A stretch of 64,000 bases of DNA from Melittangium boletus DSM 14713 (GCF_002305855.1 NZ_CP022163.1:7003765-7067764); one strand, 5' to 3'; counted from the stretch's first letter, positions 10,609-48,838 are shown. Translations and numbers: made by a program. Notes: a model not told the origin generated them from the sequence alone.

Positions 10609-10612
10609 AGGT

Positions 10613-11085: not shown

Positions 11086-11108
11086 GGCTCACCCCGAGGT
11101 GCTACGTG

Positions 11109-12137: not shown

Positions 12138-12139
12138 GG

Positions 12140-16212: not shown

Positions 16213-18582
<2,370 letters not shown>

Positions 18583-19194: not shown

Positions 19195-19269
19195 GTCGAT
19201 GGGGAAGTATAACGAGGGGCATGGCCCCGGAACCATGCGCGGCCGCTCAGCACGCATGCGAGCAGGACG

Positions 19270-20886: not shown

Positions 20887-20888
20887 AC

Positions 20889-20921
20889 GGATAGGAATTT
20901 ATCCCAGAGGATAGGAAATCG
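20889..20921. promoter_or_regulatory. Candidate RtcR upstream activating sequence: palindrome GGATAGGAATTTATCC plus repeated GGATAGGAAAT half
   Basis: 20889-20904 is GGATA-N6-TATCC inverted repeat. 20909-20919 repeats GGATAGGAAAT. ~60 bp upstream of the sigma-54 promoter. Confidence 0.4.
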
Positions 20922-20955
20922 GGCGCGGAAAGACGCTCCCCCTGGGGAGAAGCGT

Positions 20956-20971
20956 TGGCACGCGCCCTGCT
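20956..20971 (+). promoter_or_regulatory. Sigma-54 (-24/-12) promoter for rtcBA
   Basis: TGGCACgcgccCTGCT matches TGGCAC-N5-TTGCW (GG at -24, GC at -12). ~55 bp upstream of the rtcB ATG. Confidence 0.6.
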
Positions 20972-21025
20972 CTACCCCTCCCCGTGCCCGGCGGGACCGG
21001 GCGGACACTTCCGAGGGAGCAGGCC

Positions 21026-22261: not shown

Positions 22262-22410
22262 GCGGAGTGTGCCTGGAACCCTGACCCGGGAGGACGCCAT
22301 GAGGGGATAAAGACATCGAGACGCCCGCTCCCTCCGAGACTTCGGTCAGTAGGATGGGGGAGCGGGCGTCGCTACGTGCGGGCAAGGGGATTCACAGGGA
22401 GGGAGACGAC

Positions 22411-23427
22411 ATGGTTCGCATCGATGGTTCGAAGGGAGAGGGGGGCGGGCAGGTCCTGCGCACGTCGCTGGCGCTGTCGCTGGTGACGGGGACGCCGTTC
22501 CAGATGGAGAACATCCGCGCGGGGCGCTCCAAGCCGGGACTGTTGCGCCAGCACCTGACGTCGGTGAAGGCGGCGGCGGCCGTGGGCGGGGCGGAGGTGG
22601 AGGGCGCGGAGCTGCATTCCCGGACGCTGACGTTCCGGCCCCGGAGCGTGAAGCCGGGGGACTACCACTTCGCGGTGGGCACGGCGGGGAGCGCCACGCT
22701 GGTGTTGCAGACGGTGCTGCCGGCGCTCCTGAGCGCGAGCGGGCCGTCCACGCTGGTGCTGGAGGGCGGGACGCACAACCCGGCGGCGCCGCCGTTCGAC
22801 TTCCTGACGAAGGCGTACCTGCCGCTGGTGCGGAAGATGGGGCCGGTGGTGGAGGCGTCGCTGGAGCGGCCCGGGTTCTTTCCCGCGGGGGGAGGGAAGT
22901 TCCGCGTGAGTGTGCGGCCCGCGCCGCTCGAGCCCCTGCACCTGTTGGAGCGGGGGAAGGTGGTGCGCCGGCTGGCCACGGCGATGGTGGCGCAGGTGCC
23001 GTTCGACGTGGCTCAGCGGGAGCTGACGACGGTGGGGCGCACGCTCGGGTGGAGCGCGGAGGAGCGCCGGGTGGAGGAGGTGAAGCGCTCGGCGGGACCG
23101 GGAAACGTATTGTCGCTGGAGGTGGAGAGCGAGCACGTCACCGAGGTGTTCACGGGCTTCGGGGAGCGGGGTGTGCGGGCGGAGGCGGTCGCCGAGGCGG
23201 TGGCGGAGGAGGCCCGGGTCTACCTGGAGGCCGAGGTGCCCGTGGGCCCGCACCTGTGTGATCAGCTGTTGCTCCTGCTGGCCCTGGCCCGGGGAGGCTC
23301 GTTCCGGACGCTGCCCCTCGAGGGACATGCGCTCACCCAGATGGAGACGTTCGCGCACTTCACCGATGTGCGGGTCACCGAGACCCCCATCGCCCCCCGG
23401 GTGAGGGAAATCGTGGTGCGCGGTTGA
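22411..23427 (+). CDS. rtcA: RNA 3'-terminal phosphate cyclase RtcA
   Basis: 'IDGSKGEGGGQVLRTSLALSLVTGTPF...AVGTAGSATLVLQTVLPAL...HLCDQLLL' is typical of RtcA. The listed ORF begins earlier, at a spurious in-frame ATG. Confidence 0.85.
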   Translation: MVRIDGSKGEGGGQVLRTSLALSLVTGTPFQMENIRAGRSKPGLLRQHLTSVKAAAAVGGAEVEGAELHSRTLTFRPRSVKPGDYHFAVGTAGSATLVLQTVLPALLSASGPSTLVLEGGTHNPAAPPFDFLTKAYLPLVRKMGPVVEASLERPGFFPAGGGKFRVSVRPAPLEPLHLLERGKVVRRLATAMVAQVPFDVAQRELTTVGRTLGWSAEERRVEEVKRSAGPGNVLSLEVESEHVTEVFTGFGERGVRAEAVAEAVAEEARVYLEAEVPVGPHLCDQLLLLLALARGGSFRTLPLEGHALTQMETFAHFTDVRVTETPIAPRVREIVVRG

Positions 23428-23667: not shown

Positions 23668-25695
23668 CTACGGGGAGGCGGGAGCGGTGGACACCTTGGG
23701 CAGATCCAGTGCGGGATTGCGTGAGAAGAAGCCCATGGGCAGCAGCTTGAAGCCCGCGTGCGCCACGGGCATGACCGGCCACTCCTCGGGGCGCGGTGTG
23801 TGGGTTACCCCGAGCGTATACCAGACCACCACGTCCTCGTTGACCAAGGGCTGGTTGTCTCGCACCCAGGTGGGCAGCCCGTCGCCCCCCTCGCTCTGAT
23901 TGGGATAGGCACCGGCGGCATACAGCTCCCCGGGGACATGGCGCGTGGCCCAGAAGTGGTGATCGATGAAGCCCGCGCGCTTGCGCGACACGTTCTCGGG
24001 CGCGGCGAAGGGCACGGTGTTCTCTCCTGGCACGAGCACATAGCCCGTGGGACCGCCCAACGCGTTGCGCTCCTGGGGGTTCTGGATCACCCACCGCCGG
24101 GCATTCACCAGGCTCATGTCCCGCTGGGACTGGGCCTCGCTCGCGAGCGGTTCCATGCGCATGGTGAAGGCATTTCCCGCGGGGTTGGCCGCTCCTCGTG
24201 GCAGGGGATGGGTGTTCATCTCCAGGATGGAGTTGCGAGGCCCATCCACGTCGAAGTCGAGCCGGAAGTTGAAGAAATGCTGGTGATGGACCGCGATCAC
24301 GTCCTTCTGCACCAGGTGACCGTACAGCTCATGCTCGGCGTGCTCGGACTGGGGAGTCATGCCCTTGGCCAGCATGATGCCCGTCAGTTGGACGTCGACA
24401 TCGATCGAGCCATCTTGTTTGAAGATGTAATAGAGGACGTAGTCATAGTTGGCGACCGCGACCCCGTACGCCACCACCAGCTCACTCCCCCGCCGGGACT
24501 CGTTGCGCTTCGTCTCGTAGTCGTAATGCTTCCACAGGATGCCGCCGTCGCGCTCATAGAGGGCGAGCGCACGAGGGATTTCGGAGACCTCGCCGGAGTT
24601 CTTGGCCTGGGCCGCCGGGAGGAAGGTGGCGCTGGCGGGGACGTCCACGCCGGGCTCGAGCGGGCTGAGATAGTTCCCAAAGCCATACTCTCCCACGTCG
24701 AAGGCGCTCCTCCAGGACCAGGTGTCCTCGGGATCTCCATAGGGAACCACCATCTCGGAGAGGGAGAGCCGGTGGAGGATCTTCCGCTCCCGGCCCTGGT
24801 CCGTATAGGTGACCTGGTGGAGCACCGCGCCCTCTCGCGGGTGGGCTTCCACGCGGAAGCGCCAATTCTGCCAGCGCACTTCATTTCCTGTCAGGGTGTA
24901 GTTCACGCCCTCCGGGTGGGTCACGACAACGGGGTGTGGACGGGGGCGAAGCACCCCCACGGACGCCTCGTCATAAGCCCCCGCGTCCTGGGGAATCGGA
25001 ATGTCCCCCCGGTCGATGACCTCCACTACCTCGCGCTTCGTGAGATCCAGGAGCGCGAGCACGCCCTCCACGGGCCGAGCGTAGGCATTGCCACTGTCTC
25101 CCTTGAAGAAGGGAAAGATCCTCATCAGGCGGTGATCCGCGCGCTGAGGATCCAGGGAGGGTCCCGGCGCCCAGGTGTCCAGATGGATGTGCTCGGGGTG
25201 GGTCACGCCCCGCCGCTGCATGGCGGCTCGCCAGCGCTCATCCTGCCACACCAGCTCCTTACCCAATTCCTTGTCCCGAGTGCCCAGGGACGGCTGCACA
25301 CCGGGAACCTGATTCCAGCTTTCCACGGCCGTGGGAGGCGTCAGCCGGACGCGCGCCTCGAAGGTCAGGTTGCGCGCGAAGTCATAGACCACCACGAAGG
25401 CGCGGCGCGCAACGGGAGTCCCCGCCGCGAAGGCATCCAATTCCTCCTTGGAGGGCTCCCACGGCGAGACCAGGGGAAACACACTGTTCTCATTCACGTG
25501 CCCCTGCTCGCGCAGGAGCTGGATCGCCTGGGCGTACTCCGCCACCGTGAACGCATCCAACGGGTGGGGTGAAGGAGCCGGTTGCGTGGAGGATTCACCC
25601 TCCGGTGGCGCCACCGGCTCGGGTTTCTTGGCACACGAGAGGCTCGAGAGGGTCAATAGACCCGAGAGCAGGACGCACCGCGTCAGTGAATACAT
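23668..25695 (-). CDS. Copper amine oxidase (TPQ-containing primary-amine oxidase), lipoprotein
   Basis: 675 aa. Lipobox 'LLTLSSLSCAKK'. TPQ consensus 'VANYDYVLYY' (N-Y-D/E-Y). Copper-ligand His residues ('HHQHFFNFRLDFDVDG', 'VTHTPRPEEWPVMP'). Confidence 0.85.
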   Translation of the reverse strand: MYSLTRCVLLSGLLTLSSLSCAKKPEPVAPPEGESSTQPAPSPHPLDAFTVAEYAQAIQLLREQGHVNENSVFPLVSPWEPSKEELDAFAAGTPVARRAFVVVYDFARNLTFEARVRLTPPTAVESWNQVPGVQPSLGTRDKELGKELVWQDERWRAAMQRRGVTHPEHIHLDTWAPGPSLDPQRADHRLMRIFPFFKGDSGNAYARPVEGVLALLDLTKREVVEVIDRGDIPIPQDAGAYDEASVGVLRPRPHPVVVTHPEGVNYTLTGNEVRWQNWRFRVEAHPREGAVLHQVTYTDQGRERKILHRLSLSEMVVPYGDPEDTWSWRSAFDVGEYGFGNYLSPLEPGVDVPASATFLPAAQAKNSGEVSEIPRALALYERDGGILWKHYDYETKRNESRRGSELVVAYGVAVANYDYVLYYIFKQDGSIDVDVQLTGIMLAKGMTPQSEHAEHELYGHLVQKDVIAVHHQHFFNFRLDFDVDGPRNSILEMNTHPLPRGAANPAGNAFTMRMEPLASEAQSQRDMSLVNARRWVIQNPQERNALGGPTGYVLVPGENTVPFAAPENVSRKRAGFIDHHFWATRHVPGELYAAGAYPNQSEGGDGLPTWVRDNQPLVNEDVVVWYTLGVTHTPRPEEWPVMPVAHAGFKLLPMGFFSRNPALDLPKVSTAPASP

Positions 25696-26754: not shown

Positions 26755-27873
26755 ATGGTTTCCAGCACGACCTTCGCCACCGTCCTCGAGCCGGCTCCGT
26801 CGTGTGCCTCCGCGGATGTCAGTCCCCGGCGGCGTTCCTGCCGGACCCGCCCGCGCGTGCTGCTCGTCGAGTCCCAGCCCGAGGTGCGTGACGCACTTGC
26901 TCAGGCGCTGGTGGGGGCGGGGTTCGAAGTGCTCGCCGCCTCGGCGATCGAGGCCGTGCTCGAGGCGCTGGGCGAGAACTGCGCGCTGCCGCACCTGGTG
27001 TTCGCCCCCGCTGAGTCCTCCCAGGGAGGGATGGACGGCGCGGCCCTGTGCGAGCGGCTGCGCGCCGATGCCCGGACGGCGCATCTGCCGGTGTACCTGC
27101 TCGCGTCCCAGGACTCGCCCGCGCTGCGGGAGCGGGTTGACGCGGTGCGTGCGGATGACCTGCTCGTGCAGCCCGTTTCGCCGCGCGTGGTGGTGTCGCT
27201 CGCGCGCCTCAAGGCGGGCCGGGGAGCCTTCGCGTCCGCCTACGAGGCGCATACCGTCCGCATGCCCCTGGCCCAGGTCGTTCACGCGCTGTTGCACGGC
27301 TCGCGCGCGGGTCGTGTGGAACTGCGCGACAATGCCGGCTGGCTCACCTTCCGCCAGGGGCACGTGGTGGACGCGTCCTTCGAGGGGGAGCGGGGGCTCG
27401 TCGCCATCCGTCGGCTGCTCTTCTTCGGCTCGGGTGCCTACGCGGTGTCCTTCGGGGAGGAACTGGCGGACGGCAAGCTGTTGCTCAACTCGCGCATCTA
27501 CGACTCGCTGCTGCTGCCGGCCGCCGAGCGCTTCCTGGCGCTGTGCGCGCTGGGCATCCCCCTGTCCGCCCGCCTGACGGTGGACTTCAAGCGGCTGGCG
27601 GACGCGCTGCGCTCGCTGCCCGATGACGTGGGCCAGGTCATCCGGCTGTGCGACGGGCACCGCAGCGTGCACACGGCTCTCCTGGAGTGTGCCCTGCCCG
27701 AGGTCACCACCCTGGAGGTGCTGACGTGCCTGTACGCGCAGGGGGTGCTGGTGCCGGCCAACTTCATCGCCGAGCGCGAGCCGACGCCCCAGCACGTGCC
27801 GCGCTTCTTCGAGCCGGTGCTCGAGGAGTCCGAGGAGCCCTTCGCCGACGCGTTCGCGGCCACGGGTTCCTGA
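26755..27873 (+). CDS. Response-regulator receiver domain protein with C-terminal DUF4388 (PATAN-like) domain
   Basis: 'RVLLVESQPEVRDALAQALVGAGFEVLAASAIEAV' is a REC domain (phospho-acceptor Asp region 'LVFAPAESS'). The C-terminal part resembles DUF4388. Confidence 0.65.
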   Translation: MVSSTTFATVLEPAPSCASADVSPRRRSCRTRPRVLLVESQPEVRDALAQALVGAGFEVLAASAIEAVLEALGENCALPHLVFAPAESSQGGMDGAALCERLRADARTAHLPVYLLASQDSPALRERVDAVRADDLLVQPVSPRVVVSLARLKAGRGAFASAYEAHTVRMPLAQVVHALLHGSRAGRVELRDNAGWLTFRQGHVVDASFEGERGLVAIRRLLFFGSGAYAVSFGEELADGKLLLNSRIYDSLLLPAAERFLALCALGIPLSARLTVDFKRLADALRSLPDDVGQVIRLCDGHRSVHTALLECALPEVTTLEVLTCLYAQGVLVPANFIAEREPTPQHVPRFFEPVLEESEEPFADAFAATGS

Positions 27874-28796: not shown

Positions 28797-29366
28797 TTGC
28801 GCGTCCTCGGCATCGATCCTGGCAGCCGCTTCATGGGCTATGGCGTGGTGGAGGATCGGCGCGGGAAGCTCGTGCACGTGGGCCATGGCGTCATCAAGGT
28901 GGACCCCGAGGCCGCGCTGGAGTGGCGCCTGAAGGAACTGCATGACGCGCTGCTCACCGCGCTCAAGCTCCACCGGCCGGACGCGGTGGCGGTGGAAGGC
29001 GTGTTCACCTTCCGCAATGCCCGCAGCGCGCTCATCCTCGGGCATGCCCGCGGGGTGGCGCTCCTGGCGGCGGCCCAGGCGGGGTTGACCGTGTACGAGT
29101 ACGCCCCCGCCAAGGTGAAGCGCTCGGTGGGCGCGGGCGGCTCGGCGGACAAGGACGCGGTGGCGCGCATGGTGTGCACCTTCCTGGGGCTGGAGGAGTT
29201 GGAGCGCTCGGACGTGAGCGATGCGCTCGCGGTGGCGCTCTGCCACCTCAACCATGGCCGCGCGGGAGTCCCGGCCGCGGGCGGCTCGAAGGCCCGGGGC
29301 AAGTCGGCGCGGGCGCGGCTCGCGGACAAGCTGACGCCGTCCTACCGTCGGCCGGAGGCACGATGA
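28797..29366 (+). CDS. ruvC: Holliday junction resolvase RuvC
   Basis: 'LRVLGIDPGSRFMGYGVV' and 'VAVEGVFTFRNARSALILGHARG'. TTG start at 28797 with GGAGAGG RBS (ORF track begins at an upstream TTG). Confidence 0.85.
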   Translation: MRVLGIDPGSRFMGYGVVEDRRGKLVHVGHGVIKVDPEAALEWRLKELHDALLTALKLHRPDAVAVEGVFTFRNARSALILGHARGVALLAAAQAGLTVYEYAPAKVKRSVGAGGSADKDAVARMVCTFLGLEELERSDVSDALAVALCHLNHGRAGVPAAGGSKARGKSARARLADKLTPSYRRPEAR

Positions 29367-29974
29367 TCGCTTCACTGCGCGGCACCGTTCAGGAAAAGGG
29401 CCTCGACGAGGCCATTCTCGACGTGGGGGGCGTGGGCTACCGCGTCTTCTTTTCCACGCTGACGCTGGGGCGCCTGCCCGCCGAGGGCGAGGCCGTCCAG
29501 GTGCGCATCCGCACCGTGGTGCGCGAGGACGCCTTCGAGCTGTTCGGCTTCCTCACCCGCACGGAGGAAGAGCTCTTCCTGTTGCTCAACTCGGTGTCCC
29601 ACGTGGGGCCGAGGCTCGCGCTGGCGGTGCTCTCGGGCATGGAGGCGCCGGAGCTGGTGGCGGCGCTCGGCCGGGGCGAGGTGGCTCGCCTCACCAAGAT
29701 TCACGGTGTCGGCAAGAAGACCGCCGAGCGGCTGGTGCTGGAGCTCAAGGAGAAGGTGAAGACGCTGCACCTGGAGCAGGTGGCCACGCAGATGCAGCCC
29801 GAGGCGCCCGCCTCGAAGAACCTGGCCGACCTCATCTCCGCGCTCGTCAACCTGGGCTACAAGGTGCCCCAGGCGGAGAAGGCCGCGGCATCCGCCAGCG
29901 AGCGGCTGGGGGAGGAGGCCGCCTTCCAGGCGCTCTTCCGCGAGGCCCTCAAGATGTTGCGCGCCACGCCCTGA
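29363..29974 (+). CDS. ruvA: Holliday junction branch-migration protein RuvA
   Basis: 'MIASLRGTVQEKGLDEAILDVGGVGYRVFFS...LTKIHGVGKKTAERLVLELK'. ATG overlaps the ruvC stop (ATGA). Confidence 0.85.
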   Translation: MIASLRGTVQEKGLDEAILDVGGVGYRVFFSTLTLGRLPAEGEAVQVRIRTVVREDAFELFGFLTRTEEELFLLLNSVSHVGPRLALAVLSGMEAPELVAALGRGEVARLTKIHGVGKKTAERLVLELKEKVKTLHLEQVATQMQPEAPASKNLADLISALVNLGYKVPQAEKAAASASERLGEEAAFQALFREALKMLRATP

Positions 29975-29976
29975 AT

Positions 29977-30636
29977 TCAGAAGTGGGTGACGCGCACCTC
30001 GGGCTCCGGCGCGTCGTCCGGAACGCCCTCGCGCTTGCGCTGGCAGGCCGCGCAGCACTCCGCCCAGGGCACGAGCTGCAGGCGCTCCAGGGGAATGGCG
30101 CCCTGGCAGTCCTCACACCGGCCATAGGCGGAGGGATTCGTGCCGAGCTTGTTCAGGGCGGCGCGCACGCGGGGCAGGAGCACATCGTTGCGCTCCTCGC
30201 CGGACTCCGCCGCGTCCTGGAGCTGCTCGCGCTGCTCTTCGTCGATCGCCGACCAGACCCATTCCGGCGGTGGCTGGGCCGTGAGGATGTAGTGGAGGAC
30301 ATGCAGCTGGTGCTCGGCCTCGCGGCGCTGGGCGTCGCGGCGCAGGGCCTGCAGCTTCGGGTTCTCCATCATCCGCGACAGGCGCTTCTGCACGTCCCGC
30401 CGCATCCCCGCGTCCCGGGTGATGACGTCGATGTAGGCCTCCGGGGTGACGCCCCGGGGTTCGCAGATCTGCTGCAGGACGCGCTCGAAGATGGGCTCGA
30501 TGCCCGCGGTGGCGGCGGTGGAAATCCACGTGGTGGCGGAATTCAGCGCGTCGAGCGACGAGAGGACGGACTGGTGGATGTCCTTCCACTGCGGCGAAGG
30601 GCCTTCTGGAGAACCGGTCGTCATGCCTGGGGCCAT
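29977..30636 (-). CDS. DksA/TraR-family C4 zinc-finger protein (long form)
   Basis: C-terminal 'YGRCEDCQGAIPLERLQLVPWAECCAACQ' is the DksA/TraR C4 finger. ATG at 30636 (alternative at 30624). Confidence 0.6.
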   Translation of the reverse strand: MAPGMTTGSPEGPSPQWKDIHQSVLSSLDALNSATTWISTAATAGIEPIFERVLQQICEPRGVTPEAYIDVITRDAGMRRDVQKRLSRMMENPKLQALRRDAQRREAEHQLHVLHYILTAQPPPEWVWSAIDEEQREQLQDAAESGEERNDVLLPRVRAALNKLGTNPSAYGRCEDCQGAIPLERLQLVPWAECCAACQRKREGVPDDAPEPEVRVTHF

Positions 30637-30827
30637 ATAACCACAAGGGTGCCGGAAGACACACGGACCCTTGGCTGGAGGGGCCCGCTCTCTTGGTTGC
30701 TCATGGGTCGCACCAGGATGGCTCACGCCCGCGTCGGTTCGGAGCGGCCGGATGCTCCATTCTGGCCGCGCCCGAGCCCTTTCGGGACGGGGCCTCGGAG
30801 GGAGACGGGCCCGGCACGGGGCTCGCA

Positions 30828-33134
30828 ATGCCCGGGGGTGAACCTCCATCCCACATAGGTGTTGGCGTGCCCCCCTCGAATTCCGGCAGCGAAGCCATCC
30901 AGCGCATCTCCCTGAAGAACCGCGAGTACGCCTACATCGAGGACGCCAACCGGGGCGTGGTGCTGGTGGAGATCGGCCCCAAGGTGCTCACGCTGGAGGC
31001 CCACCTCACCCTGGTGATGAAGAGCCGGATGGTGGAACTGGGCACGGGGAGTTGGTGCGTGGTGCGCAACCCCGTGGTGCGCGCCGAGGGCCGGGTGGCG
31101 CTGGATGACTTCGGGCAGGCGCGCATCGCGGTGGGAGACCGGGAGGTGCGCGTGGGCCCCCAGGTCTTCCCCCTCTACCCGGGCGAGGAGCTGGAGGGGG
31201 AGATCGCCGCCGAGTACGTGCTGGGGGTCAACGAGGCGCTGCGCCTGCGCGCGCTCACGGCCTTCACGGAGGAGCCGTCCTCGGGGAGCGCCCCGCGCCG
31301 CCGCGAGGCGGGTGACGAGTGGTTGATGCGGGGGCCGGGCCGCTACGTGCCCAACGCGGCGGTGGTGGTCGTCTCGGACGAGAAGGCGCGGGTGCTCAAG
31401 GAGACGGAGTATTGCGTCGTGCTCAACCCGGTGGACCGCGCCACGGGGCGCATCCAGGAGGGCCGCCGCAAGGTCATCTCGGGGCCGGACGTGTTCTTCC
31501 TCGAGCCCGGCGAGGAACTCGAGGGCGACGTGCGCCGCAAGCACGTCCTGTCGGAGATGCAGGGGCTCAAGCTCCAGGCCCTGGATGAGCTCTCCGAGCC
31601 GGAGGAGGGCGGTGCTCCCCGGGCGCGCAGGGCGGGCGACACGTGGATCGTCCGGGGGCCACGCACGTACGTGCCCAGCGAGAAGGTGCTCATCCTCAAG
31701 GAGATCTCCGCGCTGTCGCTCGGGCAGAGCGAGGGCCTGTACGTGAGGGACTTGCGCTCGGGCAAGGTGTCGCTCGTGCAGGGGCCCTGTCAGTTCATGC
31801 CCGAGGCGCACCAGGAACTGCACGAGAAGCGCCTGTCCCCCGAGGCCGAGGCGCTGCTGGGGCTCGTTCCGCCGCCGCCGGCCGTTCAGGGCGAGGGCAA
31901 GGTGCCGCGTCCGATGCCGGAGAAGGTGGACCGCACGCGCGCCATCGTCCTGCGCATCGAGGACAACACGGCGGTGCTCATCAATGACTTCGAGACGAAC
32001 CACGCGCGGGTGGAGTTCGGACCGTCGAAGGTGATGCTGCGTCCGTACGAGGACGTGACGGTGCTGGACCTGTCGGGAGGCACGCCCAAGAAGGCGAGGC
32101 AGCTCAAGGTGTTGATGCTCCGGTTGGGGCCGGACTTCGCCACGGATCTGTTCGAGGTGGCCACGCGCGACCATGCCCGGCTGCGCATCAAGCTCTCCTA
32201 CAAGTGGCAGTTCGACGTGGAGGGGGACTCGGAGAAGGACAAGGCCATCTTCCGGGTGAACGACTTCATCGGCTACGTCTGCGAGAACCTGGCCTCGCGC
32301 ATCCGCCAGGTCGCCGCGGAGAACGACTTCGAGACCTTCCACAAGACGGCCAGCGTGCTCATCCGCCGCGCCATCTTCGGGGTGGACGAGGGGGGCAAGC
32401 CGCGCAAGGACCGGCTCTTCTCCGAGAACCAGCTGCGCATCATCGACATCGACATCAAGGACATCGCGCCGGTGGACGACAAGACGGCCCTCAAGCTGCG
32501 CGAGGCCATCGACACCAACATCCAGATTCAGCTGGACGCATCGCGTCAGGAGGCGCAGGCCGCCGCCGAACTCAAGCGCATCCGCAGCGAGGAGGAGAAG
32601 CAGCTCGCGGACATTTCCAGTCACCGCAAGGCGGAGGCCGAGCGCCAGTCCCTCATCGAGCTGCAGAACCGCAACAACCAATTGGCCACGTTGAGCCGGG
32701 CGAAGGTGGAGGCCGAGGCGCAGCTCGAGAAGGCGCGGGTGGAGAGCGAGGAGGCGCTGGCGCGCGCGGAGGCCGAGGCCCGGGCCTCGCGCATCCGCAC
32801 CGAGGCGGAGCTGGAGCGCGAGCGCAAGATGACGGAGATGACGATGGAGCGGCAGAAGCGGCTCAACGACCTGGAGGTGGAGCGCCAGGCGCGGCTCTCC
32901 GAGGTGGAGGCCGGGCAGTTCCGTCAGCGGGTGGAGGCGCTCGGGGGTGGGGAGAACTTCGTCAAGGCCGTGGCCGCCCAGGCGCAGGCGGCCGTGGTGG
33001 GCGGGCTGGACAAGGTCGTGTTCCTGCCCAGCGGCTCCAACCTCAACCTCTTCGACTCCATGCAGGGGCTGCTCGGGCCGGGTGGGGCGGGCGCGGCGCG
33101 TCCCGGTACGGGCGGCGGCGGCGGCGGCAATTAG
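30828..33134 (+). CDS. Major vault protein (MVP) homolog
   Basis: ~770 aa. Tandem MVP-repeat domains ('YAYIEDANRGVVLVEIGPKVLTLEAHLTLV', 'VVRNPVVRAEGRVALDDFGQARIAVGDREVRVGPQVFPLYPGEELEG' recurring ~55 aa apart). Then a shoulder domain and a long cap-helix coiled coil ('ELKRIRSEEEKQLADISSHRKAEAERQSLIELQNRNNQLATLSRAKVEAEAQLEKARVESEEALARAEAEARA'). Gly-rich tail. Start uncertain (ATG 30828 or a GTG ~30873). Confidence 0.8.
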   Translation: MPGGEPPSHIGVGVPPSNSGSEAIQRISLKNREYAYIEDANRGVVLVEIGPKVLTLEAHLTLVMKSRMVELGTGSWCVVRNPVVRAEGRVALDDFGQARIAVGDREVRVGPQVFPLYPGEELEGEIAAEYVLGVNEALRLRALTAFTEEPSSGSAPRRREAGDEWLMRGPGRYVPNAAVVVVSDEKARVLKETEYCVVLNPVDRATGRIQEGRRKVISGPDVFFLEPGEELEGDVRRKHVLSEMQGLKLQALDELSEPEEGGAPRARRAGDTWIVRGPRTYVPSEKVLILKEISALSLGQSEGLYVRDLRSGKVSLVQGPCQFMPEAHQELHEKRLSPEAEALLGLVPPPPAVQGEGKVPRPMPEKVDRTRAIVLRIEDNTAVLINDFETNHARVEFGPSKVMLRPYEDVTVLDLSGGTPKKARQLKVLMLRLGPDFATDLFEVATRDHARLRIKLSYKWQFDVEGDSEKDKAIFRVNDFIGYVCENLASRIRQVAAENDFETFHKTASVLIRRAIFGVDEGGKPRKDRLFSENQLRIIDIDIKDIAPVDDKTALKLREAIDTNIQIQLDASRQEAQAAAELKRIRSEEEKQLADISSHRKAEAERQSLIELQNRNNQLATLSRAKVEAEAQLEKARVESEEALARAEAEARASRIRTEAELERERKMTEMTMERQKRLNDLEVERQARLSEVEAGQFRQRVEALGGGENFVKAVAAQAQAAVVGGLDKVVFLPSGSNLNLFDSMQGLLGPGGAGAARPGTGGGGGGN

Positions 33135-33143
33135 CGTCCTCCG

Positions 33144-34217
33144 TCACGCCGCGTGGCGGGCGGCGGAGGGCGGCTGGATGGCGCCGTGACCCGGAGGGGG
33201 GAGGGTGAGCGTGGGGTGGAGGCCCGGCGACACCAGCGCGCTCGTCAGGAGGGAGGAGGGGTGGACGTTCACGAAGCCCCCCTCCACCTGGGAGGGGCCC
33301 GCGAACACCTTCTCCAGGATCATCGACGAGTACTGCTCCAGGGAGCTCTCGCGGGTGTTGCCATTGAGCACCACCTCCCAGCCCATCTGTTCGGCGAAGG
33401 CGCGCACCCCGGGGATGAGGGATTGGAGCGGGGTGTAGCTCTCCGTCGCCACGGCGTTCTCGCTCACCACGAACACCTCCTGCCCGGTGGCCACCGCGAG
33501 CGACATGTTGCCCAGCGTGTGGCCCGGCGTGGACAGGAGCGCCACGCCCCGGCCCAGCCACGTATCGCCCTCCAGGAGCACCACGCGCTCCTCGGGCACG
33601 CCGGTCGTTCCGTCCTCGACGTACCAGACGCGCTCCAGGGGGTGCAGGTTCTTCACCGCGGCCCACTCGGCCCGCTGCACCAGCAGCTTCGCGCGGGGGA
33701 AGTAGGCCGGCTGACCATCTCCGCCGAGCCAGCGCCGCAAGTCCTGTGCGTGCAGGTGATCGAACGCGAGGTAGTCCACGTCCTCGGGCCGCAACCCGAG
33801 CGCCTGGAGGTGTTCCTGTACCGTGCCGTGCCGCCGCGTCATCACCTTGGTGGTGACGAAGTCGCCATACTTCTCGCGCAGCGATTTATAGAAGGGCGCC
33901 TCATGGCCGCGCTCATAATCGCTCGGATTGAAGAGCAGGGTGCGCTGCGTCCCGTCCTCCTGGTACTGCACCACCTGCATCCGGTTCAGCATCATCACGT
34001 ACGGGGCGAGGGTGCGCGCCGCGCCACTGAAGGCGAACAGGGTGGGGTAGGGGAAGGTGACGAGGTCGCACGTGGCCAGCGCGGTGACGGGGCCCTCGGC
34101 GGTGAAGGCCTCGCGCGCCTCCTGGGCGGCCCGGCGCAGCTTCCGCAGCCGACGCCCGGCCGCCTGCTCGGTGCGCGCCTCGGGGAGGAAGGGGAGAGGT
34201 CGAAAGGGAGCGGTCAT
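33144..34217 (-). CDS. MBL-fold metallo-hydrolase
   Basis: 'LLSTPGHTLGNMSLAVATGQEVFVVSENA' is the MBL HxHxDH-region equivalent. ATG at 34217. Convergent with the MVP gene; the stops are ~10 bp apart. Confidence 0.6.
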   Translation of the reverse strand: MTAPFRPLPFLPEARTEQAAGRRLRKLRRAAQEAREAFTAEGPVTALATCDLVTFPYPTLFAFSGAARTLAPYVMMLNRMQVVQYQEDGTQRTLLFNPSDYERGHEAPFYKSLREKYGDFVTTKVMTRRHGTVQEHLQALGLRPEDVDYLAFDHLHAQDLRRWLGGDGQPAYFPRAKLLVQRAEWAAVKNLHPLERVWYVEDGTTGVPEERVVLLEGDTWLGRGVALLSTPGHTLGNMSLAVATGQEVFVVSENAVATESYTPLQSLIPGVRAFAEQMGWEVVLNGNTRESSLEQYSSMILEKVFAGPSQVEGGFVNVHPSSLLTSALVSPGLHPTLTLPPPGHGAIQPPSAARHAA

Positions 34218-34434
34218 GGGATCACCGGGAGGTAACGCGTGAGCGCGGGCGGATGTGTCGCCCATTACGCACGGTGGCTGGACGCTCCGCGAGCGGCGCG
34301 GCGGCGGCGGGTTCACTGGTAGACGGGGTTTCCGGGCGGGCTGGCCGGCGGCGGGCGGCGGGCCCGAGGGGCGATGAGAGAGGCCGCCATGCCAGGGCCG
34401 TTCTGGTAGGGTGGGGAAAGAGGATTCACGGGAC

Positions 34435-35466
34435 ATGGCGAAGCGGAAAACGGACGACGCGCTCTCGGGAGAGGCGCTCAATGACGAGGGCCGGGTCGAG
34501 GCCTCGCTCCGGCCACGCTCCTTCGACGAGTACGTGGGCCAGAGCGCCGTCGTCGACAAGCTCAGGGTGTATGTCCAGGCGGCGCGCAGCCGCGGGGAAG
34601 CGCTCGACCATTGCCTCTTCTCCGGGCCTCCGGGTCTGGGCAAGACGTCGCTCGCCTACCTCATGGCCACGGAACTGGGCGTGGGCATCCACGTGACGAG
34701 CGGCCCCGCGCTCGAGCGCAAGGGGGACCTGGCGGGCCTGCTCACCAACCTCAACGAGCGCGACATCCTCTTCATCGACGAGGTGCACCGCCTCAACGCC
34801 GCCATCGAGGAGTACCTCTACCCGGCCATGGAGGACTTCCGGCTGGACATCACCATCGACACGGGCCCCGCCGCCCGGGCGATGAAGATCGACCTGCCGC
34901 CCTTCACCCTCATTGGCGCCACCACCCGCACGGGCCTGCTCACCTCGCCCTTGCGCGACCGCTTCCAAATTCAGGAGCGGCTCGAGTACTACGAGCCCAA
35001 GCACCTGGAGATGATCCTCAACCGCTCGGCGCGCATCCTCGGCGTGAAGCTGGAGCGGGACGGGGCCCGGGAGATCTCCACCCGCGCCCGGGGCACGCCC
35101 CGCATCGCCAACCGGCTGTTGCGCCGCCTGCGGGACTTCGCCCAGGTGGAGGGGGATGGCACCATCACCCGGGAGCTGGCGTCCCAGGCGCTCACCCGGC
35201 TGGGCGTGGATGCCTCGGGCCTGGATGCCATGGACCGGAAGATCCTCCTGGCCATCCTGGAGAAATTCGGTGGGGGCCCGGTGGGGGTGGAGACGATCGC
35301 CGCCAGCGTGGGCGAGCAGCGCGATACCATCGAGGACGTGTACGAGCCCTACCTGCTGCAAGAAGGCTTCCTCCAGCGCACGCCGCGGGGCCGCACGGCC
35401 ACGCATCGCGCGTACACCTACTTCAACAAGAAGGCGCCCGAATCGGCGCAGGGGTCCCTCTGGTGA
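34435..35466 (+). CDS. ruvB: Holliday junction DNA helicase RuvB
   Basis: '[18 protein letters not shown]' Walker A. '[10 protein letters not shown]' Walker B. '[22 protein letters not shown]'. ATG 34435 with AAGAGGA RBS. Confidence 0.9.
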
Positions 35467-39416: not shown

Positions 39417-40697
39417 GTGGCGGTGCGCCCCAAGGCGACGCTTCGTCTGGGACGGGATGGTGAGCCGGGCGTGCTCGAGTTGGAGCGCCCGCTCGCCGCC
39501 AGTCTCTCCCCTGGCCAACCCCTCGTGGCGCATTTCCACTCGCCCGAGGGAGTGGTGCTGTTGCGCGAGCCCGCCGCCCTGGGCGGCTTCTTCGCCGGCA
39601 GTCTCCGCTCGCTGTCGGTGGAGGAGGTGCTCGGCCATGTGCACTCCGGCATCCGCAGCGGCCAGCTCATCCTCCAGAACGGCCCGGTGCAGCGCACCGT
39701 CACCTTCCGGGACGGCCAGCCCACCTTCGCCGTGTCCAGCGTGCACCATGAGCGCCTGGGCTCCGTGGTGGTGCAGTTGGGCCTCGTCACTCCCGAGCAG
39801 CTGCACCACGCGCTGGGCAAGGTGTCGCCCTCGTTGCGCATTGGCGCGGTGCTCACCCGCGAGGGCTTCCTGTCCGAGGCCAACCTCTACAGCGCCATGA
39901 CGTACCTGGTGCGCGAGGTGATGCTCAACCTCTTCGAGATGTCCGAGGGCAGCTTCCTCTTCATCGAGGGCCGTCCGCCACCGGGCGACTCGGTGAAGCT
40001 CCAGGAGCGCACCCGGGATCTCATCCTCCAGGGCCTCAAGCGTGGAGAGGCCGTGGCGCGGCTGCGCCGGCGCTTCCCGGACGATCTGACGGTGGTGGCC
40101 GGCTCCGAGTCACCTCCTCCCGGCGAGGAGGCCCTGTTCGCCCAGGCCTCCGCGGGCAGCGTGCTGGGCGTGCTGCGCTCCTTTTGGGAGGGCAGCCTCT
40201 TCTCCTTCCTCACCTGGGTGGATGAGCGCCTGCGCGACGGCTCGCTCGTCATCCAGCAGAAGTCCGCCGTGCCTCCCGTGGCGCCCGTGCCCCTCGTTCC
40301 CCGGCGGCCCTCGGGCTCCTTCGCCGTGGTGCCCCCTCCGGTCGTGGCGCCCCTGGGCCCCGAGGAGCGCTTCAACGCGCTGCTCGCGCAGATCCACACC
40401 GCCATCCGCCTGGCGGGCGCCAATCCGAACCTGCTCCAGGGCTTCCTCGAGTCTCCCCAGCCCGGGCTGGAGACCGCCTACGAGGGCGTGAAGCTCGGGC
40501 CGGATGGCCGGCTGGACGTGGAGCGCATCCGCCAGAACGTCTCCAGTGGGGGCGAGGCGCTCGCGCGCGCCATGACGCTCGAGGCGCTGGACGCCTTCGT
40601 GTCCTACGCGCTGTTCTCCGCGCGCAACGTGCTGCCGGGCGAGATGTCCGAGCGGCTCTATCGCGGCTACCGCGATCTCCAGGAGGGCTTGTCGTGA
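39417..40697 (+). CDS. DUF4388 (PATAN)-domain protein
   Basis: GTG start. 'LGHVHSGIRSGQLILQNGPVQRTVTFRDGQPTFAVSSVHHERLGSVVVQLGLVTPEQL' is typical of DUF4388. Confidence 0.6.
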   Translation: MAVRPKATLRLGRDGEPGVLELERPLAASLSPGQPLVAHFHSPEGVVLLREPAALGGFFAGSLRSLSVEEVLGHVHSGIRSGQLILQNGPVQRTVTFRDGQPTFAVSSVHHERLGSVVVQLGLVTPEQLHHALGKVSPSLRIGAVLTREGFLSEANLYSAMTYLVREVMLNLFEMSEGSFLFIEGRPPPGDSVKLQERTRDLILQGLKRGEAVARLRRRFPDDLTVVAGSESPPPGEEALFAQASAGSVLGVLRSFWEGSLFSFLTWVDERLRDGSLVIQQKSAVPPVAPVPLVPRRPSGSFAVVPPPVVAPLGPEERFNALLAQIHTAIRLAGANPNLLQGFLESPQPGLETAYEGVKLGPDGRLDVERIRQNVSSGGEALARAMTLEALDAFVSYALFSARNVLPGEMSERLYRGYRDLQEGLS

Positions 40698-48442: not shown

Positions 48443-48766
48443 CGCCGCGTCCTGGAGCGGGGGCCCACGTGTCCTTCCGGGGCACCTCCGTTCCATCCAC
48501 TGTGCGGACGCATTTACCGATTTGCAATAAACGTTTTCAGCCGAAACCCCCCTTGTCCTCGAACCGACGGTGCACGCCGGGCCTGCGCGGACTTCCTCTT
48601 GGGCCGCGTCTAAGCCGTTGATTCACCAAGGGTTGTTGGAAAGAGGACGAGCCGTGGCCCCCGTGGAGGGCGGCTGTCAAATTTTACCAGCGCGGTTTAC
48701 CAGCGGGGAGCGTTGACGCCCCGCGGCACGGCGCGGTCCCGCGACGCGTGCGCTCGCGCGGACCCT

Positions 48767-48792: not shown

Positions 48793-48838
48793 CGGGTTCA
48801 CGAGCGAACCCCCCGCCTTCCGCGGGGGATTTCCCGCC

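What the first reader, a model, noticed from the sequence alone, without database searches (positions are those of the whole stretch)
30828..33134. Bacterial major vault protein homolog embedded between ruvA and ruvB
A ~770-aa protein has tandem ~55-aa MVP repeats, a shoulder region and a long cap-helix coiled coil ending in a poly-Gly tail. This is the architecture of eukaryotic MVP, which is rare in bacteria. It sits in a 4.5-kb block (dksA-like, MVP, MBL hydrolase) that splits the usually contiguous ruvA-ruvB pair. No TEP1/vPARP-like partners are visible.
Basis: partly seen in the sequence, partly recalled or inferred. Interest (0 to 1): 0.7.

Follow-up and report, generated by a model that had tools for sequence, protein, structure and literature searches.

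The report
Myxobacterial major vault protein gene
This gene really does encode a bacterial relative of the protein that builds the eukaryotic "vault" particle, but such myxobacterial copies are already described in the literature, and it is a lone gene with its own control region rather than part of a block that disrupts ruvA-ruvB.

Summary
The ORF at 30828-33134 (more likely starting at GTG 30867, 755 aa) matches every Pfam vault domain and aligns end to end with solved rat, rabbit and human MVP (E about 1e-136, 35-38% identity).

It has seven repeats, not nine. The missing part includes repeat R4, which helps dock PARP4. The cap helix keeps its full length (154 aa).

Near-identical orthologues occur in Melittangium boletus (94%), Vitiosangium, Archangium, Hyalangium and Corallococcus. 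The Corallococcus and Melittangium copies were already reported in silico in 2013 and 2023. None has been studied experimentally in the papers I found.

The "block" reading fails:
- ruvA and ruvB are already separated by the MBL-like gene in 30 of 32 related loci.
- The dksA-like gene sits in the same locus of Cystobacter fuscus, which has no MVP there.
- In other genera MVP lies elsewhere, with no shared neighbour.

What does travel with MVP is about 160 nt of upstream DNA carrying an invariant GG-N10-GC, sigma-54-type element.

The gene is vertically inherited and under strong constraint: dN/dS is 0.13-0.18 and dN is lower than for ruvB.

No TEP1, vPARP or vault RNA is present in the window.

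The most likely product is a soluble, shorter vault-like cage that is made only under certain conditions. This is untested.

The parts
30867..33134 (+). MVP homologue coding sequence. Probable start GTG 30867, 755 aa.
   Evidence: ORF. Pfam vault domains. E about 1e-136 to solved MVPs. Orthologues start at the position of GTG 30867. The RBS is seen.
30903..32126 (+). Seven MVP repeat domains (aa 26-433 in 768-aa numbering). They correspond to rat R1, R2, one repeat standing for R3-R5, then R6-R9.
   Evidence: Pfam Vault, Vault_2, Vault_3 and Vault_4. phmmer pairs query 31-184 with MVP 12-162 and query 131 onward with MVP 220 onward. A gap of about 112 columns separates these proteins from the 9-repeat forms. 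Strand pattern of the AF2 model. Foldseek against the murine R1-R7 crystal structure gives TM 0.74-0.75 (normalised to the target).
32127..32477 (+). Shoulder domain, SPFH-like (aa 434-550).
   Evidence: PF11978 at 1.5e-44, covering 1-118 of 118 profile positions. Foldseek secondary hits to HflK/C, flotillin, prohibitin, stomatin and erlin cages, E 1e-6 to 1e-4.
32478..32939 (+). Cap-helix coiled coil (aa 551-704, 154 aa).
   Evidence: AF2 helices 551-593 and 600-704. It aligns with the cap helix of rat and rabbit MVP with no net length change. Rich in A, E, R and Q.
32940..33131 (+). Cap-ring region and Gly-rich C-terminal tail (aa 705-768). The stop codon is 33132-33134.
   Evidence: Aligned with MVP up to residue 856-858. 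Conserved LNLF...LLG motif. Low pLDDT. Tail sequence.
30813..30827 (+). Candidate sigma-54 (-24/-12) promoter element, GGCACGGGGCTCGCA (GG-N10-GC). It lies 39 nt before GTG 30867.
   Evidence: The GG, GC and GGCAYG positions are invariant in 11 orthologous upstream regions from at least 5 genomic contexts. The pattern has 1 hit in the window (0.31 expected). Across the 97 fetched loci it has 14 hits, 13 of them directly upstream of MVP. Control: the rtcR-rtcB intergenic region has TGGCACGCGCCCTGCT.
30709..30786 (+). Conserved upstream blocks: CGCNCCANNNTGG at 30709-30721, GCTCCATTCTGG at 30754-30765, and an imperfect palindrome at 30771-30786. They are candidate activator-binding sites.
   Evidence: Invariant columns in alignment A4. 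The block A pattern has 1 hit in the window against 0.05 expected. RNAalifold gives no net covariation support for an RNA structure (covariation term +1.31).
30857..30861 (+). Ribosome-binding site AGGTG, 5 nt before GTG 30867.
   Evidence: Sequence. AGGTG is present in 9 of the 11 aligned orthologous loci.
29363..29974 (+). Context only: ruvA (203 aa).
   Evidence: RuvA_N, HHH_5 and RuvA_C, with TIGR00084 at 1.4e-56. The start is set by comparison with the 203-aa orthologues.
29977..30624 (-). Context only: DksA/TraR-type C4 zinc-finger protein (215 aa). It is resident in this locus in Archangiaceae whether or not MVP is present.
   Evidence: PF01258 at 1e-09. Below the cut-offs for true DksA. 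Orthologues are 215 aa. Present next to ruvA in Cystobacter and Archangium loci that show no MVP within the fetched range.
33144..34217 (-). Context only: MBL-fold, lactonase-like protein (357 aa). This is the ancestral occupant of the ruvA-ruvB spacer in Myxococcaceae and Archangiaceae.
   Evidence: Weak NCBIfam hits to AHL lactonases (1e-10, far below cut-offs). No Pfam hit. The 357-aa orthologue is 80% identical. It lies between ruvA and ruvB in 30 of 32 loci.
34435..35466 (+). Context only: ruvB (343 aa).
   Evidence: RuvB_N, AAA_lid_4 and RuvB_C, with NF000868 at 5.8e-151. Orthologues are 343 aa.

Best explanation
The gene encodes a chromosomal, vertically inherited myxobacterial orthologue of the major vault protein.

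Shown:
- It has the full MVP domain order: N-terminal beta-sandwich repeats, an SPFH-like shoulder, a 154-aa cap helix and a cap ring.
- It has seven repeats instead of nine. The missing part includes R4, which together with R3 forms the docking surface for the PARP4 MINT domain in the human vault.
- It is soluble by sequence. No hydrophobic segment is present.
- It is under strong purifying selection.
- It stands alone, with no conserved neighbour.
- It carries its own conserved upstream region of about 160 nt.

Inferred:
- Like eukaryotic MVP and other SPFH cage proteins, it self-assembles through lateral repeat and shoulder contacts and a bundle of cap helices.
- This gives a dome of roughly 38-39 subunits. 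Two domes then pair at the conserved R1 edge.
- The result would be a closed, hollow, cytoplasmic vault-like shell, about 10 nm shorter than the rat particle. It would lack the PARP4, TEP1 and vault-RNA accessories.
- Transcription starts from a sigma-54-type -24/-12 promoter driven by an unknown enhancer-binding protein. The shell would then be made only under particular conditions, such as starvation, development or stress.
- Its role would be sequestration or storage of cytoplasmic cargo. This last step is the least supported.

Its position between ruvA and ruvB is incidental. That spacer is a variable region in this family.
For: Family membership:
- All vault Pfam domains score above cut-off.
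- E is about 1e-136 to solved MVPs, aligned end to end.
- Foldseek top hits are vault structures at E 1e-50 to 1e-39.

Seven repeats and loss of R4:
- Searches show the gap.
- The PARP4 docking residues Q164, R169, Q172 and D214 lie on repeats 3-4 (PMC12280208).

Cap helix:
- Its length is unchanged.
- The published regression for SPFH cages, y = 0.1782x + 10.22 (PMC12624060), gives about 38 subunits for 154 aa.

Solubility: the maximum Kyte-Doolittle 19-residue window is 1.33.

Constraint and descent:
- dN/dS is 0.13-0.18 among close orthologues.
- Against Corallococcus, MVP dS is 0.51, compared with 0.43-0.64 for yebC, ruvC, ruvA and ruvB.
- MVP dN is 0.082, below ruvB (0.124-0.128), yebC (0.165) and ruvA (about 0.25).
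- GC is 0.695 against 0.689 for the window.

No conserved partner: eight contexts were inspected.

Upstream region: conserved, with an invariant GG-N10-GC.

R1 edge: the N-terminal R1 is highly conserved across the clade.
Against: - No particle has ever been reported for a bacterial MVP in the papers I found. Assembly is inferred purely from homology.
- The copy number and the pairing of two halves cannot be predicted with these tools.
- The residues that hold the two halves together in the rat vault were not mapped here.
- The -12 element reads TCGC (TGGC in two loci), not the consensus TTGC.
- The consensus with up to 2 mismatches occurs at chance frequency in the window: 6 found, 5.9 expected. 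The sigma-54 call therefore rests on conservation, not on the match itself.
- The motif is absent from the more distant clade at 41-68% identity.
- The three named human NAD+-pocket residues (R437, R511, L517) are not conserved. They align with Q354, L426 and R432, by my mapping of the alignment onto PMC12280208.
- Cargo and physiological role are unknown even for eukaryotic vaults.
Confidence: 0.55

Rival explanations
1. The protein forms only open half-vault or SPFH-type domes, or rings. These would sit on a membrane or on another surface rather than forming a closed two-halved particle.
For: The shoulder is an SPFH domain. Structural neighbours after MVP are the membrane-bound cages HflK/C, flotillin, prohibitin, stomatin and erlin. 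The vault is described as the exception among SPFH complexes in forming a complete enclosure without membrane association, and half vaults are reported (PMC12624060). A 2026 paper is titled 'The vault associates with membranes in situ' (PMC13100048; title and abstract only).
Against: There is no hydrophobic or transmembrane segment. There is no signal-peptide-like N-terminus (by inspection; no predictor was run). R1, which forms the waist in eukaryotic vaults, is retained and is among the best conserved parts in the bacterial clade. Sequence identity to true MVP is 35-38% over the full length, against 12-18% to the SPFH cages.
Confidence: 0.25
2. The dksA-like, MVP and MBL-like genes form one functional or mobile module, such as an island or defence cassette, that was inserted into a contiguous ruvA-ruvB operon.
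For: The three genes fill the 4.46-kb ruvA-ruvB gap in the window. The same order is found in Melittangium and in a close metagenomic relative. The spacer accepts cargo: a VgrG-Rhs cassette lies there in L081.
Against: The MBL-like gene lies between ruvA and ruvB in 30 of 32 loci, across Myxococcus, Corallococcus, Pyxidicoccus, Cystobacter and Archangium, almost all without MVP. The dksA-like gene is present with no MVP in range in Cystobacter and Archangium loci. MVP occurs at other loci without either gene. The three genes are on alternating strands. None matches a PADLOC model. No flanking repeats were found. GC equals that of the host.
Confidence: 0.03
3. The gene is a recent eukaryote-to-bacterium transfer with no adapted function: a decaying or neutral passenger.
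For: Myxobacteria carry other eukaryote-like genes. Daly et al. raised transfer from eukaryotes as a possibility for bacterial MVPs (PMC3762200). Identity to animal and amoebozoan MVP is 35-38%.
Against: dN/dS is 0.13-0.18 and the ORF is intact in many genera. Synonymous divergence equals that of core genes. GC matches the host. In a midpoint-rooted NJ tree the 7-repeat bacterial clade lies outside eukaryotes plus the 9-repeat cyanobacterial and Anaerolineae forms, not inside eukaryotes. The upstream control region is conserved and looks bacterial.
Confidence: 0.03
4. The conserved upstream region is not a sigma-54 promoter. It is some other element, such as a sigma-70 or ECF promoter with operators, or a structured 5' leader.
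For: The -12 element deviates from consensus (TCGC or TGGC). Single-sequence matches are no more frequent than chance. The imperfect palindrome at 30771-30786 shows a few compensatory changes. An ECF sigma gene lies in the window at 18592-19257.
Against: The GG-N10-GC spacing and the GGCAYG block are invariant across 11 loci, while neighbouring columns vary. The exact pattern is almost exclusive to MVP upstream regions in about 1.4 Mb of fetched loci, with 13 of 14 hits, though it was derived from those regions. L092, which was not used to derive it, also has it. RNAalifold's covariation term is unfavourable at +1.31. No sigma-70-like site was found.
Confidence: 0.4

Closest known systems
Eukaryotic major vault protein (rat, human and rabbit MVP; PDB 4V60/4HL8, 9BW5, 9Z4W)
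   Same: The domain order is the same: repeats, SPFH-like shoulder, cap helix of about 155 aa, cap ring. Identity is 35-38% over at least 80% of the length, with E about 1e-136. Fold matches reach E 1e-50. The protein is soluble.
   Different: It has seven repeats instead of nine, with only one repeat in place of R3-R5. The repeat-4 part of the PARP4/MINT docking surface is therefore missing. No TEP1, vPARP or vault RNA lies nearby. The three named NAD+-pocket residues are not conserved. It has a Gly-rich tail. It has a bacterial promoter. Particle formation has not been shown.
Myxobacterial MVP homologues already noted in silico: Corallococcus coralloides H8MNI3 (Daly et al. 2013, PMC3762200), and Corallococcus coralloides and Melittangium boletus in the tree of Santos et al. 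2023 (bioRxiv 10.1101/2023.11.10.566534)
   Same: These are direct orthologues: 94% identity to the Melittangium boletus protein and 85-87% to Corallococcus. Length (about 757 aa) and domains are the same. In Melittangium the locus is also the same.
   Different: The protein itself differs in nothing essential. The window comes from a different, unnamed close relative. The seven-repeat count, the synteny analysis, the selection measures and the conserved upstream element are not in the parts of those papers that I read.
Nine-repeat bacterial MVPs of cyanobacteria and Anaerolineae, often annotated 'colicin uptake protein'
   Same: These are full-architecture MVP homologues in bacteria, 38-40% identical to the window protein.
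   Different: They are 850-890 aa with nine repeats. They group with eukaryotic MVPs rather than with the myxobacterial clade in the NJ tree. This agrees with the two-clade picture of bioRxiv 10.1101/872010.
SPFH-family cages (HflK/C, flotillin, prohibitin, stomatin, erlin, QmcA)
   Same: They share the SPFH-fold shoulder followed by a long helix that bundles into a dome. Subunit number scales with helix length.
   Different: Those proteins are membrane-anchored, lack the N-terminal repeat barrel, and form single domes. Identity is only 12-18%.
MVP-like proteins of phages (Santos et al. 2023; uncultured huge phages LR756500, LR756501 and LR756503)
   Same: They are recognisable MVP relatives outside eukaryotes.
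   Different: Identity to the window protein is only about 23% over 70-74% of its length. They belong to a different bacterial and viral subclade. The window gene shows no sign of phage or plasmid association.

Membership tests
Major vault protein (MVP) family | Tandem MVP repeat domains (Pfam Vault, Vault_2, Vault_3, Vault_4) | tested here: met
   All four models score above the gathering threshold, with E 3e-05 to 1.2e-32.
Major vault protein (MVP) family | MVP shoulder domain (PF11978) after the repeats | tested here: met
   E 1.5e-44, covering 1-118 of 118 profile positions at aa 434-550.
Major vault protein (MVP) family | Long cap-helix (about 155 aa) followed by a cap-ring C-terminus | tested here: met
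   The AF2 helix spans 551-704. It aligns with the rat and rabbit cap helix and cap ring up to residue 856-858, with no net indel in the helix. The cap-ring part is modelled with low confidence.
Major vault protein (MVP) family | End-to-end sequence homology with MVPs of solved vault shells | tested here: met
   phmmer E 7.5e-137 to 7e-133. Foldseek E 8e-50.
Major vault protein (MVP) family | Nine repeat domains (R1-R9), as in the rat vault | tested here: not met
   There are seven. A gap of about 112 alignment columns separates it from the 9-repeat forms. Query repeat 3 aligns alternatively with MVP 114-162, 167-213 or 220-272. Short MVPs of about 545 aa also exist in excavate eukaryotes, so repeat number varies within the family.
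Major vault protein (MVP) family | Self-assembly into a 78-subunit (2 x 39) barrel | not testable with these tools
   Only a monomer could be modelled. The helix-length regression from PMC12624060 predicts about 38 per dome. That is an extrapolation.
Vault ribonucleoprotein (complete particle) | Minor components: TEP1 (TROVE/NACHT/WD40), vPARP/PARP4 and vault RNA | tested here: not met
   Among about 50 window ORFs scanned there is no TROVE, PARP, VIT/vWA or NACHT domain. The only WD40-like match is one sub-threshold PD40 repeat at 50826-53624. Rfam finds only a tRNA. The MVP neighbours in 8 other contexts show none either. The rest of the genome was not available.
Vault ribonucleoprotein (complete particle) | PARP4 MINT docking surface on repeats 3-4 (human Q164, R169, Q172, D214) | tested here: not met
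   The segment equivalent to human MVP residues about 163-219 is absent. The residues are taken from PMC12280208.
Vault ribonucleoprotein (complete particle) | NAD+/ADP pocket behind the keyhole loop (human R437, R511, L517) | tested here: inconclusive
   In the alignment these map to Q354, L426 and R432, so they are not conserved. The loop stays basic, however (TPKKARQLK against RPKRPHARR), and K421 is invariant in A1.
SPFH-domain cage proteins | SPFH fold followed by a coiled-coil helix | tested here: met
   Foldseek hits to HflK/C, flotillin, prohibitin, stomatin and erlin at E 8e-07 to 1e-04, probability 1.0.
SPFH-domain cage proteins | Membrane anchor (transmembrane segment, hairpin or lipidation site) | tested here: not met
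   The maximum Kyte-Doolittle 19-residue mean is 1.33. The N-terminus MPPSNSGSEAIQ is hydrophilic. No dedicated predictor was run.
Sigma-54-dependent promoter | GG and GC doublets separated by exactly 10 nt (-24/-12), upstream of the gene and on its strand | tested here: met
   GGCACGGGGCTCGCA lies at 30813-30827. It is invariant in register across 11 orthologous loci, and 13 of the 14 occurrences in the fetched loci lie upstream of MVP.
Sigma-54-dependent promoter | Upstream activator (enhancer-binding protein) sites about 80-150 nt upstream, and dependence on RpoN | tested here: inconclusive
   Conserved blocks lie at 30709-30721 and 30754-30765, with a palindrome at 30771-30786. No activator was identified. 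Dependence on RpoN is not testable here.
Co-inherited dksA-like / MVP / MBL-like module | The three genes occur together wherever MVP occurs | tested here: not met
   MVP occurs without them in L083, L084, L085, L088, L096 and L097. They occur with no MVP in range in L002, L005, L006, L012 and L057, among others.

The most novel reading that the evidence does not exclude
Some myxobacteria (Melittangium, Corallococcus, Archangium and relatives) build genuine, closed vault particles. The barrel would be shortened to seven repeats. There would be no PARP4, TEP1 or vault RNA. Production would be switched on by a sigma-54 enhancer-binding protein. This would be the first prokaryotic vault. It would offer a genetically tractable system for asking what the bare MVP shell does, and it would support a bacterial origin of the eukaryotic vault from SPFH-type cages.
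Probability: 0.4. Interest if true: 0.75.

Novelty: new member of a known kind. Interest (0 to 1): 0.42.

Why it matters
Most eukaryotes have vaults, the largest ribonucleoprotein particles known in their cells. Their function has stayed unclear since their discovery in the 1980s.

A bacterial orthologue that keeps every assembly domain but lacks all accessory components could show what the bare shell is for. It might be studied in organisms that can be grown, deleted and imaged by cryo-tomography.

This analysis adds several points to what the papers I read report for the myxobacterial homologues:
- There are seven repeats, and the PARP4-docking repeat R4 is lost.
- The cap-helix length is unchanged.
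- The constraint on the protein is stronger than on RuvB.
- The gene is inherited vertically and has no partner gene.
- A conserved, probably sigma-54-dependent, control region points to conditional expression and gives a handle for experiments.

It also removes a misleading lead. The ruvA-ruvB location says nothing about function.

Tried and rejected
- **Conserved neighbours as partners.** Eight MVP contexts were inspected. No gene recurs outside the ruvA-ruvB locus of the Melittangium-type relatives, and no candidate partner emerged. The upstream 244-aa Corallococcus protein is unrelated to the dksA-like gene.
- **Vault RNA or Y RNA.** Rfam on the whole window finds one tRNA.
- **TEP1 or vPARP.** Pfam on about 50 ORFs finds none. 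The RtcR-RtcB-RtcA operon about 7.4 kb upstream was considered, because Rtc operons elsewhere include the TROVE protein Rsr (my own knowledge). No TROVE gene is present here, and the operon is part of the conserved backbone.
- **Defence system.** MVP, the dksA-like gene and the MBL-like gene have no PADLOC match.
- **Mobile element.** There are no flanking repeats, no composition shift and no plasmid match. The only phage matches are at about 23% identity.
- **Recent horizontal transfer among myxobacteria.** This was considered because MVP is 87% identical between families while RuvA is about 70%. It was rejected because dS equals that of core genes. The high identity reflects constraint.
- **RNA structure in the conserved upstream region.** The RNAalifold covariation term is unfavourable.
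- **The sigma-54 consensus as a single-sequence statistic.** It is not significant: 6 found against 5.9 expected. Only the conservation carries weight.
- **Sigma-70 promoter and terminator scan.** Nothing useful was found.
- **Metagenome scan for more loci.** Only 7 were returned.
- **Rooting the tree with short MVPs.** These turned out to be excavate eukaryotes, not an outgroup.
- **Failed or erroneous calls.** One script call failed without output. Three calls returned input errors (72, 74, 77).


Full report
**The ORF and its domains.** The window has about 69% G+C. On the + strand an ORF runs to a stop at 33132-33134, with possible starts at TTG 30693 and ATG 30828 (768 aa). Pfam places Vault_2 (1.2e-32), Vault (3.9e-30), Vault_4 (3e-05), Vault_3 (5.3e-22) and MVP_shoulder (1.5e-44, aa 434-550) on it, all above the curated cut-offs. 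NCBIfam has no model for it. phmmer against all PDB chain sequences gives E 7.5e-137 to 7e-133 for the full-length rabbit, rat and human MVP chains. The alignment continues to residue 756-758 of 768, which is MVP residue 856-858.

**Gene starts.** Orthologues are 752-766 aa and begin MP(P)S... at the position of window residue 14. At that position the window has GTG 30867, preceded by AGGTG at 30857-30861. The ATG at 30828 immediately follows a conserved promoter-like element (see below). I take 30867-33134 (755 aa) as the gene. By comparison with called orthologues, the dksA-like gene is 29977-30624 (215 aa, start MTTGSPEGP) and the MBL-like gene is 33144-34217 (357 aa). ruvA is 29363-29974 and ruvB is 34435-35466.

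**Architecture.** I aligned the protein with 30 homologues (A1). The myxobacterial proteins lack about 112 columns that are present in the animal, Dictyostelium, cyanobacterial and Anaerolineae proteins. phmmer aligns query 31-184 with MVP 12-162, and query 131 onward with MVP 220 onward. There is a weak alternative match to MVP 167-213. So one repeat stands where rat MVP has R3, R4 and R5: seven repeats rather than nine. The rat domain boundaries are from my memory of Tanaka et al. 2009. The R3-R5 range of 102-274 is confirmed by PMC12280208.

In the human vault, the PARP4 MINT domain binds an acidic stretch on repeats 3 and 4, through Q164, R169, Q172 and D214 (PMC12280208). The repeat-4 part of that surface has no counterpart here.

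The helix after the shoulder has the same length as in the eukaryotic proteins. Two 2-residue indels cancel. The AlphaFold2 model (mean pLDDT 75.5) gives helices at 551-593 and 600-704. Foldseek against the PDB returns vault structures first (E 8e-50 to 7e-39). The murine R1-R7 crystal structures follow, with TM 0.74-0.75 normalised to the target. After those come the SPFH cages HflK/C, flotillin, prohibitin, stomatin and erlin, at E 1e-6 to 1e-4.

A published regression relates SPFH cage subunit number to CC1-helix length: y = 0.1782x + 10.22, accurate to within two subunits for all known structures (PMC12624060). For 154 aa it gives about 38, close to the 39 of the rat half-vault. This is an extrapolation, not a measurement.

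There is no hydrophobic segment. The maximum 19-residue Kyte-Doolittle mean is 1.33.

**Distribution and the literature.** The closest proteins are a metagenomic one at 96% and Melittangium boletus at 94%. Next come Vitiosangium (90%), Archangium and Hyalangium (88-94%) and many Corallococcus (85-87%). A second metagenomic group lies at 67-73% and a few unnamed ones at 40-49%. The 9-repeat bacterial proteins annotated 'colicin uptake protein' score 37-40%, and eukaryotic MVPs 34-38%.

An exhaustive HMMER search of 1.84 billion cluster representatives found 1,674 proteins at E<=1e-3 and 215 at E<=1e-30. The family is rare.

It is not new, however:
- Daly et al. 2013 list Corallococcus coralloides H8MNI3 among putative bacterial MVPs (PMC3762200).
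- Sokolskyi 2019 describes MVP homologues in Myxococcales, Cytophagales and Oscillatoriales. He finds two clades, one of eukaryotes plus cyanobacteria and one of chemotrophic bacteria.
- Santos et al. [quoted passage not shown]

My NJ tree on 701 well-aligned columns gives the same split. I found no experimental work on any bacterial MVP.

**The ruvA-ruvB setting.** I fetched 80 loci around ruvA from Myxococcaceae and Archangiaceae genomes and located the window's proteins in them by tblastn.
- In 32 loci ruvB lies within the 10 kb fetched downstream of ruvA.
- In 30 of these the MBL-like gene lies between the two genes. This holds for Myxococcus, Corallococcus, Pyxidicoccus, Citreicoccus, Cystobacter and Archangium.
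- Only two more distant genomes (L060, L070) have ruvA and ruvB adjacent.
- In many Archangium loci ruvB is more than 10 kb away.
- The dksA-like gene is present next to ruvA in the Archangiaceae-type loci.
- Cystobacter fuscus (L002) has ruvA, dksA-like, MBL-like and ruvB without MVP. Its sequence matches the window up to about 30685 and then diverges.
- MVP lies in this spacer only in the window, its 96% relative (L081), Melittangium (L082) and Vitiosangium (L004, L087).
- The other genes in the spacer differ each time: a VgrG-Rhs cassette, three small genes, or an ATP-grasp, an M10 peptidase and a GxGYxYP protein.

In Corallococcus the gene lies between unrelated secreted proteins. Other relatives have it between a 689/709-aa protein and an alcohol dehydrogenase (L088, L097), next to cupin and beta-lactamase genes (L096), after a histidine kinase (L084), between two Ser/Thr kinases, or beside a pectate-lyase-like protein (L085). 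No neighbour recurs, and none has a PADLOC match. The '4.5-kb block' is therefore not a unit. The split of ruvA-ruvB is ancestral in this family, and the spacer is a variable region.

**Origin and selection.** GC of the gene (0.695) equals that of the window (0.689). dN/dS is 0.13-0.18 among orthologues of 87-96% identity. Between the window and Corallococcus, dS of MVP (0.51) falls in the range of yebC, ruvC, ruvA and ruvB (0.43-0.64). Its dN (0.082) is lower than that of ruvB (0.124-0.128), yebC (0.165) and ruvA (about 0.25). The gene has therefore been inherited vertically since before these genera split. It has been moved or lost in some lineages, and it is more constrained than core recombination proteins. 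It matches no plasmid. In phages it matches only about 23%-identical proteins in three uncultured huge-phage records.

**A conserved control region.** In every context the gene is preceded by about 190-340 nt of non-coding DNA. Alignment of 11 upstream regions from at least five contexts shows conservation from about -160 to the start codon:
- CGCNCCANNNTGG at window 30709-30721.
- GCTCCATTCTGG at 30754-30765, roughly the inverted complement of the first block.
- An imperfect palindrome at 30771-30786.
- GGCAYG-N4-T[C/G]GCA at 30813-30827.
- AGGTG just before the start codon.

The fourth block has GG and GC separated by exactly 10 nt. That spacing is the hallmark of sigma-54 (-24/-12) promoters, whose consensus is YTGGCACGrNNNTTGCW (established knowledge, from memory).

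A control exists in the same window. The rtcR-rtcB intergenic region has TGGCACGCGCCCTGCT at 20956-20971, upstream of an RtcB-RtcA pair whose regulator RtcR is a sigma-54 activator.

As a single-sequence match the consensus is not significant: 6 found against 5.9 expected with up to 2 mismatches. The evidence is conservation. The exact pattern occurs once in the window (0.31 expected). It occurs 14 times in the 97 fetched loci, and 13 of those are immediately upstream of MVP. One of the 13 is L092, which was not used to define the pattern. RNAalifold gives no net covariation support for an RNA structure. The motif is absent upstream of the 41-68% relatives. I regard sigma-54 dependence as the best reading, at about 0.55-0.6. 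It is not shown.

**Partners.** Pfam scans of about 50 ORFs across the window found ordinary chromosomal genes:
- RtcR-RtcB-RtcA
- a copper P-type ATPase
- a copper amine oxidase
- an M17 and an M13 peptidase
- LpxC and a DsbA-like protein
- an MbnB/TglH-DUF2063 pair
- an ECF sigma factor

No TROVE, PARP, VIT/vWA or NACHT domain turned up. Rfam finds only a tRNA. The three named human NAD+-pocket residues map to Q354, L426 and R432, so they are not conserved, although the loop stays basic.

**Interpretation.**
- Shown: a true MVP orthologue with seven repeats, intact and strongly constrained. It is soluble, stands alone, and carries its own conserved upstream region.
- Inferred: it assembles like MVP into domes of about 38-39 subunits that pair at the conserved R1 edge, giving a closed shell shorter than the rat vault. 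Four repeats fewer in total would shorten it by roughly 10 nm (my estimate). The shell would have no accessory components and would be made conditionally.
- Its cargo and role are unknown. I commit to sequestration or storage of cytoplasmic material under starvation, development or stress as the most likely role, with low confidence.
- The main rival is an open half-vault or SPFH-type dome on a surface.
- The module reading and the junk-transfer reading are essentially excluded.

**Verdict.** The finding is real and correctly identified. It is a new member of an already described, though never experimentally studied, group, and its genomic setting is incidental. Its value lies in pointing to a possibly tractable bacterial system for the long-standing question of what vaults do.

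Noticed in passing
window 30709-30827; L081-L083, L087, L088, L090-L092 and L095-L097 upstream of MVP: About 160 nt of non-coding DNA travels with the myxobacterial MVP gene through at least five different genomic contexts. It contains an invariant GG-N10-GC (sigma-54-type) element and two or three conserved dyad blocks. The relatives at 41-68% identity lack it.
   Followed up: yes
window 29975-34434; loci L001-L080: The ruvA-ruvB spacer is a variable region in Myxococcaceae and Archangiaceae, ranging from about 30 nt to more than 10 kb. An MBL-like gene is nearly always present. Lineage-specific cargo includes a VgrG-Rhs toxin cassette (L081 12770-20228), an ATP-grasp gene, an M10 peptidase and a GxGYxYP protein (L087).
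   Followed up: partly
window 19270-23427: rtcR (sigma-54 activator, - strand) lies divergent from rtcB and rtcA (RNA ligase and RNA cyclase). A -24/-12 promoter, TGGCACGCGCCCTGCT, is at 20956-20971, and repeated GATAGGAA motifs lie in the intergenic region. No Rsr/TROVE gene or Y RNA accompanies it.
   Followed up: partly
window 48748-50774: An MbnB/TglH/ChrH-family RiPP-modification enzyme (E 1e-102) overlaps a DUF2063 protein. This suggests a small peptide-modification cluster. A precursor peptide was not looked for.
   Followed up: no
window 16213-18582 and 23668-25695: There is a heavy-metal P-type ATPase with YHS and HMBD domains, and a copper amine oxidase. An ECF-type sigma factor lies at 18592-19257.
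   Followed up: no
window 10001-12700: This stretch has lower G+C (0.625 against about 0.69). It has no ORF with the high third-position GC typical of genes here, and its three longest ORFs have no Pfam match. It is possibly foreign or non-coding DNA.
   Followed up: partly
window 5892-7157: A 421-aa ORF has a single RHS repeat match. It may be an Rhs fragment or an orphan toxin module.
   Followed up: no
phage records LR756500.1 (21189-23171) and LR756501.1 / LR756503.1 (17725-19566): Uncultured huge phages (462-735 kb) encode proteins about 23% identical to the window MVP over 70-74% of its length. So distant MVP-like proteins exist in very large phage genomes, beyond the two gut phages reported in 2023.
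   Followed up: no
proteins P0196, P0197, P0214 and P0224: Short MVPs of about 545 aa occur in excavate eukaryotes (Andalucia, Stygiella, Naegleria). Repeat number therefore varies within eukaryotes as well.
   Followed up: partly
window 26755-27873 and 39417-40697: Two proteins carry the PatA_N/DUF4388 domain. The first (weak match, below the Pfam cut-off) also has a response-regulator receiver domain. They flank the yebC-ruvCAB-lpxC region, and both are conserved in Melittangium.
   Followed up: no
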